64,000 nt of DNA. Origin: an uncultured Alphaproteobacteria bacterium. GTDB lineage: Bacteria; Pseudomonadota; Alphaproteobacteria; CAIYWZ01. Made by a program: the position numbers. Within the stretch, counting starts at the first letter, position 1. Each line of letters opens with the position of its first letter. The DNA lies in contig CAZCFE010000001.1 in assembly GCA_964497925.1 (NCBI GenBank), forward strand, positions 6,460 through 70,459. The letters run 5' to 3'. This document shows, one piece after another, positions 3,001 through 6,552 of the stretch.

Positions 3001-6000
3001 AAGATGATGAGCACAAAGAACAGTTACTCAAGACTCAATTTAAACAAAACTCTCATGTAGATATCAGCAGGTTTAAAGGTCTTGGAGAAATGCCGCCTGC
3101 CCAGCTCAAAGAAACAACTATGTCCCCTAAAAACAGAGTTCTTTTGCGCGTTATGATGCCAGAAAAAGAAGTTGAGGTTATCGACTTGGTGGAGGCTTTA
3201 ATGGGTAAAAAACCAGAGCTTCGCTTCAACTTCATTCAAGAAAATGCGTTCAAAGCTCTAGAACTTGATATTTAAATCTTTTCAATCACAACAAAAGCAA
3301 TAACACTATCCCCCTCATCTGAGAAAGTCAAATGAGATAAAAAATCAAAGTTTTTATGAAAAACAAAAGAAGGCTTCCCTAATTCATCTCTGACAACAGA
3401 GATATCGTGAAATTTAAAACTCTCACCAATTCCTGTTCCCAAGGCTTTTGAAAAAGCTTCTTTTGCCGCAAAAGACTTCATTAGTCTCTCCAAAAACTTG
3501 GAGGATTTCTGCGATTCTTCATGTTCTAAAGTAGTGAGAATTTTTTTTGAAAACTTATCTCCAAACTTTTGATAAGTTTTCTCAATACGCTTTTTACTTA
3601 AAATATCTGTACCTATTCCAAGAATCGCCACTCTCTTAAACTTTCTCGTTTTCTAAATCATAATCATTCCACCGTTAACATGCATTGTTTGACCAGTAAT
3701 ATACGATGCCTCATCGCTTGCTAAAAACAAAACACTTGCGGCAATATCTTCTGGTGTTCCAAGGCGAGCCAAGGGGATCTTTTCTAGAAGTTTCAAACGC
3801 AGCTCATCGCTGAGCTTATCTGTCATAGGCGTTGCTATAAACCCAGGAGCAATAGCATTAACCGTAATGTTACGGCTTGCTATTTCTTGTGCTAAAGATT
3901 TGGTAAGACCGATAAGCCCTGCCTTTGAAGCAACGTAGTTTGTCTGACCAGGATTACCCATTACTCCAACAATAGAAGAAATGTTAATAATTCTTCCTAT
4001 ACGGCGCTTCATCATGCCCTTGATTGCAGCCCTTGAAAGCTTAAAAGCTGATACAAGATTCACCAATAAAACTTCTTCAATATCCTCATCTTTCATTCTC
4101 ATCAAAAGACCATCTTTTGTAATTCCTGCATTATTCACCAAAATATCAATTTGTCCTACCAAACTTTCCGCATAAGGAATAAGTCCATCAACCTCAGCCT
4201 TGTCGCTCAACGAACAGGGCGCAATAAAAGATCCTTCCCCTAAATCTTTTTGCAAAGCCTCTAGAACCTCAACACGCGTTCCAGACAAAACAACGTTAGC
4301 ACCTTGCCTTTTAAGAGTGCGTGCAATGCTTTCTCCAATGCCTCCTGTTGCTCCAGTTATTAATGCTGTTTTTCCACTTAAATTAAACATTTGATACTCC
4401 TTATATTATATTTATTAGATTTTCAAAATCTTGAGGTGTTTGCAATGAGAAAGACTGAATTTGAGGGGAAATTCTTTTTGCAAGACCGCATAAAACCTTT
4501 CCCTGACCAATTTCAATCATTTGCTCAACTTGCAAATCTGCCATTTTTAATATTGTTTCACGCCATCTAACACGGCCGCAAATTTGATCGACAAGCAAAT
4601 CATTCACACTAAACTCTCCCGCATACTCCGCTATGAAATTATGTATTATAGGAATTTTTCCTGATTTTTTTTCAGTTTTATCAAGAGCTTCTCTCATTTC
4701 TAATGCAGCAGGAGCCATCAATGGGGAATGGAAGGGAGCGCTTACATCAAGCTTAATTGCACGCTTAAATCCAAAATCTGCAATCATTGCACATGCACGT
4801 TCAATAGCATCTACATGTCCGCTTAAAACCGTTTGCTCTGAAGAGTTGTCATTAGCAACAACGCAAACCTGATCTTGCGCTGATTCCTGGGCCAATTCCT
4901 GCGCTCTTTCAATCGACCCGCCCAACAACGCCACCATACTGCCTATACCTCTTGCTACAGAATTTTGCATCGCCTGACCTCTTATTTTTAAAAGCTTGGC
5001 GGTTTGAGAAATATTAAACACGCCACTTGCGCATAACGCTGAATACTCTCCCAAAGAATGCCCAGCAGCGCACGAAAATTTTTGCGATATATCAACGTGG
5101 CCATCCCGTTCAAGCACCCTCAAGGCTGCCATACTAACAGCCATAATGGCGGGTTGTGCATTTTCTGTTAATGTCAAATCCGCATGATCTCCATGAAACA
5201 TTAAATGACTTAAATTTTGCCCTAACGCCTCATCAATTTCTTGAAAAACTTCTTTTGCCGTAGTAAACGTATCATACAACTCTTGTCCCATTCCAATTGC
5301 TTGCACGCCTTGACCTGGAAAAACCAAACTTTTTTTCATCAATTTAACTCCTTGCTTTTACATCATTAAAGTGACATAATTTACCCTCACTTGGAATTTA
5401 TAGTGCAATATTGGGAGAATGAAAATGAAAATCTTTATAAGTTTTATAATATTGTTATTTCATACATCAAATTGCACCTTTGCACAGCGCACATGTTTTG
5501 AAACACAAAGAATTATGGAGTCTTTACAAAAAGGGACAGCCACCCTTCATTACAACAAAAAAGACTATACCATAGATCAATCGTCCATCCCTACAGAGTT
5601 ACAAATTACAAGGGAAAAGACTCCCATTAAAATAAAAGATGGCATCAGAACAGAAATTAAAAATCCAGAAAACAAGAGAATTGAAATAAAATGCACTTAT
5701 CCAATTGAAAATATGGATGCGGCTATCATTGTAACAAGAGTACACAGAACATGTTTTCGCCCCGATAAAATTATACAAAGTTTATTATTAGGCGAGACAA
5801 CTTTGAATTTTAATAAAAAAGAGTACCTGATTGATCAGTCTCGCCTAAAAGAAAATAAAATAGAACAGGACAAGCCGTTATCGGTCATTATATCAGGAGG
5901 TGAGAGAGTTGAAACTGTACTCCCTGATGGCGCCCATAAAGTTACATGCACATATATGGCAACAAAAAACAATCAATTGAAAGAAAATGTTGGGAAAATC

Positions 6001-6552
6001 ACAGTAACTCGAATATTCCACCCAAAATAAGAGGCTTTTATGAAAAATATACTTTTAATCACTTTATTAATTTTATCAAGCTGTGCAGAACAAACACCAT
6101 CAAACACAAACACCTCTTCAGGGACTGGGAAAAAATGCTTTCTTGCAAAAAATGTCCAGCACGTTATTGGCCTTAAGGGGACAATTATAAAATCTAAAGG
6201 GAAAAGATATAAGATCAAAATGAGCCCTTCACTTAAAAAACAAAAATTCATGCTTAAAGAGGGTGTAAGACTTAAAGATAAATCAGACCCCAGAGACAAA
6301 TCAAAAATGATAATTACCTGCCAATACGAGGCCTATTCTCCTGACGCTCCAGATGTCGTGATTGGAAAGGCACGCGTTTTAGGTCAAAAAATTGCACAAA
6401 AATAAAATTAACATTTGAAAAACACATCAACTTTGTCTATAGTGTTTTGTATTGGGGCCATAGCTCAGCTGGGAGAGCGCTACAGTGGCACTGTAGAGGT
6501 CAGGAGTTCGATCCTCCTTGGCTCCACCAAAATGGGTGTATAGCTCAGCGGG

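What the first reader, a model, noticed from the sequence alone, without database searches (positions are those of the whole stretch)
5419..6405. Unrecognised ~90-aa two-cysteine secreted domain in three copies across two adjacent orphan genes beside a tRNA pair
The 203-aa secreted protein is an internal tandem duplication. The next gene, a lipoprotein, carries a third, more divergent copy with the same C-F..L.KGT..Y.I..S and C-[TQ]-Y...V.R.. skeleton. Each copy has two cysteines about 65 residues apart, which looks like a disulfide-stabilised extracellular module. I cannot place the domain in any family I know. The two genes sit between the fab cluster and a tRNA-Ala/tRNA-Val pair on an otherwise housekeeping backbone, a typical spot for lineage-specific surface or secreted genes.
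Basis: seen in the sequence. Interest (0 to 1): 0.7.

Follow-up and report, generated by a model that had tools for sequence, protein, structure and literature searches.

The report
New exported two-cysteine domain, three copies
Two neighbouring genes of an uncultured, probably protist-associated alphaproteobacterium encode a secreted protein and a lipoprotein that share a small two-cysteine domain matching no described family; it is real and conserved, but rare and of unknown function.

Summary
Gene A (5419/5425..6030) encodes a signal peptide plus two tandem ~90-aa repeats (BLASTP E=2e-13). Gene B (6040..6405) is a lipoprotein with a third copy. BLASTP misses that copy (E=13), but profiles detect it: an HMM built only from A-type repeats scores B at 18 bits (E~1e-7; best of 200 shuffles 9 bits), and the reciprocal search also works.

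Both genes are under purifying selection (dN/dS ~0.1). The A-B pair recurs in a lineage whose A is only 40% identical.

An exhaustive profile search of 1.84 billion proteins finds only about six real clusters. They include single- and double-domain forms, secreted or lipid-anchored. Pfam, NCBIfam, PADLOC, PHROGs and PDB sequences give nothing.

The genes are not a tRNA-linked island. Their GC3 matches the neighbours, and the conserved partner is fabD.

My best guess at function is a non-enzymatic envelope binding module working as a soluble plus outer-membrane-tethered pair. This is inferred, not shown.

One side observation: an ortholog of A sits on a low-coverage contig between a ciliate-type telomere repeat and a ciliate-coded histone gene.

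The parts
4401..5342 (-). fabD (malonyl-CoA:ACP transacylase), the conserved divergent neighbour of gene A. Context, not a part of the module.
   Evidence: Pfam Acyl_transf_1. A domain-family gene lies head-to-head with fabD in the window, L003/L057, L005 and L051.
5343..5418 (.). 76-bp fabD-A intergenic region containing the Shine-Dalgarno GGGAGA (5413-5418).
   Evidence: Nearly identical between the window and L057/L003. No sigma-70 consensus match at the scan's threshold.
5419..6030 (+). Gene A: an exported protein with two tandem copies of the domain. The likelier start is the ATG at 5425, giving 201 aa.
   Evidence: ORF. Orthologs at 76-78%, 43% and 40% identity. dN/dS 0.09-0.14.
5419..5484 (+). 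Sec-type signal peptide of A (aa 1-22, predicted cleavage TFA|QR).
   Evidence: Read from the sequence. Equivalent N-terminal signals are present in P0006 and P0009. No signal-peptide predictor was run.
5488..5745 (+). Domain copy 1 (R1, aa 24-109). Cys codons at 5494-5496 and 5692-5694.
   Evidence: BLASTP R1 vs R2 E=2e-13. AF2 pLDDT 90.8, topology H-E-E-loop-E-E-E.
5746..6027 (+). Domain copy 2 (R2, aa 110-203). Cys codons at 5752-5754 and 5947-5949.
   Evidence: Same topology as R1 in the full-length model.
6040..6405 (+). Gene B: a lipoprotein carrying one domain copy, 9 bp downstream of A with its own AAGAGG Shine-Dalgarno. Probably co-transcribed with A.
   Evidence: ORF. Orthologs at 70% identity. 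dN/dS 0.12. In L056 the A-type and B-type genes overlap by 4 bp.
6040..6084 (+). Lipoprotein signal peptide of B with lipobox L-S-S-C. Cys15 would be the lipidated N-terminus, with Ala at +2.
   Evidence: Read from the sequence. Lipoboxes are also present in the L056 B-like protein (LEGC) and in P0008 (LAGC).
6085..6129 (+). Low-complexity Ser/Thr/Asn/Pro linker of B (aa 16-30).
   Evidence: Read from the sequence. Poorly conserved among B orthologs.
6130..6402 (+). Domain copy 3 (B aa 31-121). Cys codons at 6136-6138 and 6319-6321.
   Evidence: hhalign P=1.6e-4. 0 of 300 shuffles reach the real score. A-only HMM 18.2 bits, E=1.2e-7.
6454..6608 (+). tRNA-Ala(GGC) and tRNA-Val(GAC), with their own promoter-like site at 6415-6443. 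Adjacent, but with no evidence of a link to the module.

Best explanation
A and B form a conserved two-gene unit, probably an operon. It encodes two paralogous exported proteins built from a previously undescribed ~90-residue alpha+beta domain.

The predicted domain is one N-terminal helix packed on a five-stranded antiparallel sheet. The segment before the helix carries the first invariant Cys, and strand 4 carries the second; I infer that they form a disulfide staple. A is the soluble periplasmic (or secreted) form with two tandem domains. B is tethered by an N-terminal lipid and a flexible linker, probably to the outer membrane, and has one domain.

Shown here: the homology of the three copies, the export signals, purifying selection, conservation of the gene pair, the confident fold prediction, and the absence of any described relative.

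Inferred: the domain is a non-enzymatic binding module of the cell envelope. The invariant residues are C, F, G-x-R and C-x-Y, which look mostly like core residues and not like a catalytic set. The proteins are strongly basic (pI 9.3-10.2). I therefore propose that the soluble and tethered forms work together, either binding an anionic envelope component (phospholipid, LPS or peptidoglycan) or binding each other. Known soluble/lipoprotein paralog pairs such as OsmY/DolP, PliC/MliC and LolA/LolB are the model for this idea.

The confidence given applies to the functional part. That this is a genuine new domain family I rate at about 0.9.
For: - Three homologous copies.
- Real genes: dN/dS 0.09-0.14 for A and 0.12 for B, against 0.06 for fabD.
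- The pair is conserved. A-B is adjacent in the window and in L003/L057. In L056 the two genes overlap by 4 bp, where A is 40% identical and the B-like protein scores 45.7 bits on the B-only HMM.
- Every family member carries a Sec or lipoprotein signal.
- Both Cys are invariant in all copies.
- Fold: pLDDT 90.8 and pTM 0.79 for one domain; both repeats take the same topology in the full model.
- Basic pI.
- No invariant His, Asp, Ser or Glu.
- No described relative.
Against: - Nothing bears directly on function: no ligand, partner or expression data.
- The A-B interaction was not modelled.
- In L005, the closest genome, the A-type gene has no B-type gene beside it. P0009 is a lone single-domain protein. 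A strict A+B partnership is therefore not universal.
- The conserved adjacency to fabD is unexplained by this model.
Confidence: 0.35

Rival explanations
1. Host-interaction factor. The organism is a protist (ciliate) symbiont. A and B would be surface-exposed or released proteins acting on host structures rather than on the bacterium's own envelope.
For: - The family is confined to a few uncultured Alphaproteobacteria whose closest relatives are Rickettsiales/Rhodospirillales-like MAGs.
- P0008 sits among many signal-peptide orphan genes.
- An intact A ortholog lies on contig L004 between a C4A3 ciliate telomere repeat and a ciliate-coded H3-like gene. C4A3 is the Chilodonella macronuclear telomere repeat (10.1101/2024.11.13.623465).
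- Paracaedibacterales and Rickettsiales symbionts have been reported in Chilodonella (PMC12644861).
Against: - A Sec signal alone delivers a protein only to the periplasm, and no dedicated secretion signal or nearby secretion system was seen.
- The symbiotic lifestyle of the window organism was not demonstrated here.
- L004 may be an assembly chimera (1.5x coverage).
Confidence: 0.25
2. Periplasmic inhibitor or immunity protein. A small, disulfide-stabilised protein in soluble and lipid-anchored forms would neutralise an incoming hydrolase such as a lysozyme, a protease or a type VI effector. PliC/MliC, Ivy and Tsi/Tai proteins work this way.
For: - The architecture is analogous: the same small domain appears as a soluble periplasmic form and as a lipoprotein form.
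- A T6SS ImpA_N gene and a cell-wall hydrolase gene lie within 5 kb of P0008.
Against: - The structural hits are far below significance.
- No cognate toxin or effector gene sits next to A-B in any locus; the conserved neighbour is fabD.
- The proteins are strongly basic, which is unfavourable for binding the typically basic lysozymes (the charge argument is my own inference).
- PADLOC and Pfam immunity families do not match.
Confidence: 0.12
3. Lipid or hydrophobic-ligand carrier linked to fatty-acid metabolism. A helix-on-sheet pocket would hold an acyl chain, and the conserved position next to fabD would reflect co-regulation.
For: - The head-to-head arrangement with fabD is conserved in four or more lineages and survives an inversion in L005.
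Against: - The proteins are exported, whereas Fab enzymes and ACP are cytoplasmic.
- P0008 and the L056 pair are not shown to be next to fabD.
- Synteny in small genomes can persist without any functional link.
Confidence: 0.08
4. The third copy is a chance resemblance, and only the tandem repeat in A is real.
For: BLASTP of R1 or R2 against B is not significant (E=13 and 0.086).
Against: - Reciprocal profile searches are significant and beat all shuffles.
- P0008 and P0009 bridge the two types.
- The same columns (C, G-x-R, C-x-Y) are invariant in both.
Confidence: 0.02

Closest known systems
OsmY / DolP (YraP) BON-domain proteins (from my own knowledge of the family)
   Same: A small (~60-90 aa) alpha+beta domain occurs in tandem in a soluble periplasmic protein and also in an outer-membrane lipoprotein. 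The module is a non-enzymatic envelope binder; DolP binds anionic phospholipid.
PliC / MliC lysozyme inhibitors (from my own knowledge)
   Same: One domain exists as a periplasmic soluble paralog and as a lipoprotein paralog. It is small, exported and disulfide-containing.
   Different: MliC/PliC is an eight-stranded beta-barrel, whereas this domain is predicted as one helix plus five strands. There is no Pfam hit. The proteins here are strongly basic.
LolA / LolB (from my own knowledge)
   Same: A soluble periplasmic protein and an outer-membrane lipoprotein share one fold despite very low sequence identity.
Hot-dog fold (HadA/FabZ), UTRA and PAS/Cache-like domains
   Same: The general architecture of a helix packed on a curved antiparallel sheet. 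These are the top structural neighbours.
BLIP, the beta-lactamase inhibitor protein (from my own knowledge)
   Same: A secreted protein made of a tandem repeat of a ~76-aa alpha+beta domain.
   Different: No sequence or structural match was found.

Membership tests
Any curated family (Pfam-A, NCBIfam, PADLOC, PHROGs) | Score at or above the family's curated or gathering threshold | tested here: not met
   A and B against Pfam at E<=10: only Mesd at 14 bits against a cut-off of 24. All 14 domain copies against Pfam at E<=1: four unrelated single hits. NCBIfam: FevR 16 bits against 180, LolB1_Flavo 16 bits against 50. PADLOC: none. PHROGs: only E>0.01.
Any protein with a solved structure | Significant sequence-profile or fold similarity to a PDB chain | tested here: not met
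Bacterial lipoprotein (gene B) | N-terminal positive residue, hydrophobic core and lipobox [LVI][ASTVI][GAS]C | tested here: met
   MKNILLITLLILSS-C15, with L-S-S-C matching the lipobox (read from the sequence). The lipobox is conserved in P0005 and L003 (LSSC), L056 (LEGC) and P0008 (LAGC). Lipidation itself cannot be tested here.
Sec-exported protein (gene A) | n-region with Lys/Arg, a hydrophobic h-region of 10-15 residues, and small residues at -3/-1 of the cleavage site | tested here: met
   MKMK-IFISFIILLF-HTSNCTFA|QR. Analogous signals are present in P0006 and P0009. This was judged by eye; no predictor was run.
BON domain (OsmY/DolP) | Match to Pfam BON; alpha-beta-beta-alpha-beta fold | tested here: not met
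   No Pfam match. The predicted topology is H-E-E-loop-E-E-E.
MliC/PliC lysozyme inhibitors | Match to Pfam MliC; eight-stranded beta-barrel | tested here: not met
Hot-dog fold dehydratases and thioesterases | Long central helix wrapped by a 5-6-stranded sheet with significant structural similarity; catalytic His/Asp or Asp/Glu; cytoplasmic location | tested here: not met
The new family itself (C-F ... G-x-R ... C-x-Y domain) | ~90 aa; first Cys (usually C-F) before the helix; G-x-R at the start of strand 3; C-x-Y in strand 4; preceded by an export signal | tested here: met
   All three window copies and all copies in P0002, P0003, P0005-P0009 and the L056 B-like protein have these features. 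In the L056 B-like copy the F is replaced by L.
The new family itself: intradomain disulfide | The two invariant Cys are bonded in the mature protein | not testable with these tools

The most novel reading that the evidence does not exclude
The domain is a new fold-level family specific to ciliate-associated Alphaproteobacteria, and gene A has been transferred to a host.

Contig L004 would then be a genuine Chilodonella-type gene-sized macronuclear chromosome. It carries, in order, a C4A3 telomere, a 147-bp leader, an intact A ortholog, and a convergent CenH3-like gene that uses TAA as Gln. That would mark A as a protein acting at the symbiont-host interface, and as a rare example of symbiont-to-ciliate gene transfer.
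Probability: 0.2. Interest if true: 0.7.

Novelty: new variant of a known kind. Interest (0 to 1): 0.35.

Why it matters
If the reading is right, this adds a small, confidently modelled, disulfide-stapled exported domain with no described relative to the list of bacterial envelope modules. It occurs in four architectures: secreted with one domain, secreted with two, lipoprotein with one and lipoprotein with two. All of them come from a poorly known, uncultured alphaproteobacterial clade that is probably protist-associated.

A family defined this way could be added to the domain databases, which would remove several "hypothetical protein" labels. It would also give a marker for the clade.

The practical weight is modest. 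The family is tiny, with about six clusters among 1.84 billion representatives, and no function is established. The more consequential lead is the side observation that one ortholog may sit on a ciliate chromosome. If that is real, it points to a role at the host interface.

Tried and rejected
- Pairwise BLASTP of R1 or R2 against B is not significant. Profiles and shuffle controls replaced it.
- LolB1_Flavo NCBIfam hit: 16 bits against a cut-off of 50, over 39 residues, only in R2 of two close orthologs and absent from the window protein. Rejected as noise.
- P0010, a 2007-aa RTX-like repeat protein at E=9.6e-5 in the exhaustive search. It has eight short 32-residue matches to a K-x-Y-x-I-x-Q motif and no Cys pair. 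Rejected as a repeat-summed artefact.
- Mesd (Pfam) and FevR (NCBIfam) hits are far below their cut-offs.
- Scans of genome contigs, metagenome contigs (twice) and viral contigs with domain alignments confirmed no locus. One alignment was too diverse to search with. The L005 ortholog was missed by the pattern scan and was found only through the parE-based scan.
- tblastn against the plasmid and phage collections gave no match.
- A recent genomic island at the tRNA pair: rejected on GC3 and on conserved synteny.
- Further copies elsewhere: an HMM scan of six-frame ORFs in the 64-kb window and in 55 loci found none beyond the known ones.
- The afdb50 fold library was unavailable, so I cannot exclude a match among predicted structures.
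- A literature search for the sequencing-run accessions found nothing.
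Full report
**1. What is in the sequence**

The two ORFs exist as described. Gene A is 5419..6030 (+), 203 aa. Gene callers elsewhere start it at the second ATG, 5425, giving 201 aa (P0001). That start is better placed relative to the GGGAGA at 5413-5418. Gene B is 6040..6405 (+), 121 aa. It lies 9 bp downstream of A and has its own AAGAGG.

Upstream on the minus strand are fabD, fabG and acpS. Beyond them are parE and a polyprenyl synthase gene. Downstream are tRNA-Ala(GGC) and tRNA-Val(GAC), which have a promoter-like site of their own at 6415-6443. 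A bcp-type peroxiredoxin gene follows.

A begins with a Sec-type signal: MKMK, then IFISFIILLF, then HTSNCTFA|QR. B begins with a lipoprotein signal ending in the lipobox L-S-S-C15. This is followed by a Ser/Thr/Asn-rich linker and then the domain.

**2. Are the three copies real?**

R1 (aa 24-109) and R2 (aa 110-203) of A align at 40% identity, BLASTP E=2e-13.

The copy in B is not detectable by BLASTP: E=13 against R1 and 0.086 against R2.

With orthologs added, the picture changes:
- hhalign of six A-type repeats against three B orthologs gives P=1.6e-4 over 76 columns, with both cysteines, the K-x-Y-x-I strand and the G-x-R motif in register.
- None of 300 column-shuffled B profiles reaches the real score (22.8, against a mean of 10.7, sd 2.3 and max 20).
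- An HMM built only from A-type repeats scores window B at 18.2 bits (E=1.2e-7 for a single comparison; best of 200 shuffles 9.0).
- An HMM built from B-type sequences plus P0008 scores R1 at 20.7 bits and R2 at 19.8 bits (best shuffles 7.4 and 4.0).
- P0008 and P0009 are hit by both kinds of profile and bridge them.

The three copies are old paralogs. Identities among all copies are 17-55%, and R1 and R2 share no detectable DNA similarity.

**3. Are these real genes, and how widespread is the family?**

- dN/dS between the window and its 76-78% orthologs is 0.09-0.14 for A and 0.12 for B. The neighbouring fabD gives 0.06.
- Word-indexed searches of 5.8 billion proteins find only close orthologs.
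- An exhaustive hmmsearch of 1.84 billion cluster representatives with an eight-copy profile finds seven proteins at E<=0.001. Six are real:
  - the A cluster (P0002);
  - the B cluster (P0004);
  - P0006, a 209-aa secreted protein with two domains;
  - P0007, a fragment of an A-type protein;
  - P0008, a 220-aa lipoprotein with two B-like domains;
  - P0009, a 112-aa secreted protein with one domain.
- The seventh, P0010, is an RTX-like repeat protein matched eight times over 32 residues, with no Cys pair. I reject it.
- Scans of species-representative genomes, JGI metagenome contigs and viral contigs with domain alignments confirmed nothing further.
- Plasmid and phage collections have no tblastn match.
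- There are no further copies in the 64-kb window or in 55 fetched loci.

In the 14-copy alignment the invariant residues are C3, F4, C69 and Y71. G52 and R54 are nearly invariant. The B-like protein of L056 keeps C, G-x-R and C-x-Y.

**4. Genomic context**

The organism is a deep-branching alphaproteobacterium with 36% GC. Its ParE is 81% identical to that of an uncultured MAG (CAIYWZ01, locus L005). It is below 60% identical to everything else, mostly Rickettsiales- and Rhodospirillales-labelled MAGs.

- **Same order in a sister lineage.** The gene order ispB-parE-acpS-fabG-fabD|A-B is identical in L057/L003 (FabD 87% identical).
- **Inversion in L005.** Here FabD is 70% identical and A is 43% identical. 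The block fabG-fabD-A is inverted relative to parE, yet A stays head-to-head with fabD. No B-type gene is present.
- **Single-domain form.** In L051 (FabD 64% identical), the single-domain P0009 also sits head-to-head with fabD.
- **Overlapping pair.** In L056 an A-type gene (40% identical) is followed, with a 4-bp overlap, by a 134-aa B-like lipoprotein. That protein scores 45.7 bits on the B-only HMM. The A-B pair is therefore an old, probably co-translated unit.
- **A different setting.** P0008 lies elsewhere, beside ffh-rpsP-rimM-trmD and among orphan signal-peptide genes.

GC3 of A (0.297) and B (0.303) equals that of the neighbours (0.27-0.31). The tRNA pair is thus incidental. This is an ancestral resident of the clade, and fabD is its conserved neighbour.

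**5. Structure**

- AlphaFold2 on R1 with the 14-copy alignment gives mean pLDDT 90.8 and pTM 0.79. The topology is helix 6-14, strands 19-22 and 25-30, a 22-residue loop, then strands 53-59, 64-73 and 79-85.
- The full mature A gives pLDDT 84.2 and pTM 0.53. Both repeats adopt this topology, and their mutual orientation is uncertain.
- The first Cys lies just before the helix and the second lies in the middle of strand 4.
- Foldseek against the PDB gives nothing better than E=0.35.
- Profile searches of PDB sequences give nothing.
- The AFDB libraries were not available. "No known fold neighbour" is therefore established only for solved structures.

**6. How it most likely works**

Shown here: an exported domain with two invariant Cys, in soluble and lipid-anchored forms, conserved as a gene pair and under purifying selection.

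Inferred:
- The invariant positions are mostly what a core needs (C, F, Y, G), plus one Arg. There is no conserved His, Asp, Ser or Glu set, so a binding or structural role is likelier than catalysis.
- The mature proteins are strongly basic, with pI 9.3 for A and 10.05 for B. This suits anionic partners such as phospholipid, LPS, peptidoglycan, or an acidic protein.
- The pairing of a soluble and a tethered paralog recalls OsmY/DolP, PliC/MliC and LolA/LolB. None of these is a relative (see the membership tests).

I therefore favour an envelope binding module acting as a periplasmic plus outer-membrane-tethered pair, with confidence about 0.35.

The rivals are:
- a host-interaction factor, about 0.25;
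- an inhibitor or immunity protein, about 0.12;
- a lipid carrier linked to fabD, about 0.08;
- chance similarity of the third copy, about 0.02.

**7. Side observation that may matter more than the finding**

Contig L004 (ERZ650264, 1326 bp, coverage 1.5x) carries an intact A ortholog, P0003, 76% identical to window A.

- **Extent of homology.** Homology to the bacterial loci covers only L004 185..826. It starts 3-4 nt before the ATG and ends 18 nt into B, which is then cut off as MKNIFLES*.
- **Upstream region.** The bacterial upstream region is almost identical between the window and L057, but in L004 it is replaced.
- **Left end.** This is (CCCCAAA)n followed by a 147-bp AT-rich leader. C4A3 is the telomere repeat of the gene-sized macronuclear chromosomes of Chilodonella uncinata (10.1101/2024.11.13.623465).
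- **Right flank.** On the other strand it encodes a divergent H3/CenH3-like protein. Its in-frame TAA codons align with Gln of canonical H3 (PFQRLV against NF[TAA]HLV), which indicates the ciliate nuclear code.
- **Background.** Paracaedibacterales and novel Rickettsiales have been reported as symbionts in Chilodonella single-cell genomes (PMC12644861).

Either this is a two-junction assembly chimera at low coverage, or a copy of gene A resides on a ciliate chromosome. Under the ciliate code the TAA stop of A would be read through for about 38 codons to a TGA. That does not favour a well-adapted host gene. I could not resolve this point.

**8. Novelty and verdict**

It is a new, very small family of exported proteins built on an undescribed domain, not a new kind of system. 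Lineage-restricted secreted and lipoprotein families are common in host-associated bacteria.

Interest is moderate to low (0.35). Two things could raise it: a confident model without structural neighbours, and the possible host-encoded copy.

Noticed in passing
L004 1..1326 (ena:ERZ650264 NODE_37482); homologous to window 5416..6057: An intact ortholog of gene A lies between a (CCCCAAA)n ciliate-type telomere repeat with a 147-bp leader and a convergent H3/CenH3-like gene whose in-frame TAA codons align with Gln. Homology to the bacterial loci stops abruptly 3-4 nt before A's ATG and 18 nt into B. This is either a low-coverage assembly chimera or a symbiont gene on a Chilodonella-type macronuclear chromosome.
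   Followed up: partly
L005 7963..10700: In the closest genome (ParE 81% identical) the block fabG-fabD-A is inverted relative to parE. acpS and the B-type gene are absent from the locus. An unrelated 90-aa ORF with a signal-like N-terminus (7998..8270) occupies the gap.
   Followed up: partly
window 7092..7325 (-): A 77-aa ORF matches only the N-terminal beta-sandwich domain of ATP synthase epsilon (PF02823, E=1e-10). It sits alone between bcp and an MsbA-like ABC transporter gene, away from any atp operon in the window. The same gene is called in L001.
   Followed up: no
window 5413..5427: Gene A has two in-frame ATGs, at 5419 and 5425. The Shine-Dalgarno GGGAGA abuts the first, so the second (201 aa, as in P0001) is the likelier start.
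   Followed up: yes
window 6415..6443: A good sigma-70-like promoter match (TTGAAA-17-TATAGT, 10 of 12) lies directly upstream of tRNA-Ala. No terminator-like site separates gene B from the tRNAs.
   Followed up: no
L052 72..7125: The two-domain lipoprotein P0008 lies among at least six unannotated genes, most with signal-peptide-like N-termini. Nearby are a SleB-like cell-wall hydrolase gene (PF07486) and a T6SS ImpA_N gene, next to the ffh-rpsP-rimM-trmD-rplS cluster.
   Followed up: no
P0010 (2007 aa): An RTX-like giant repeat protein matches the domain profile eight times over a 32-residue stretch (…ENAYTDKRYRIEQIELSDGTQL…). This is a repeat-summed false positive and is worth remembering when the family HMM is used.
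   Followed up: yes
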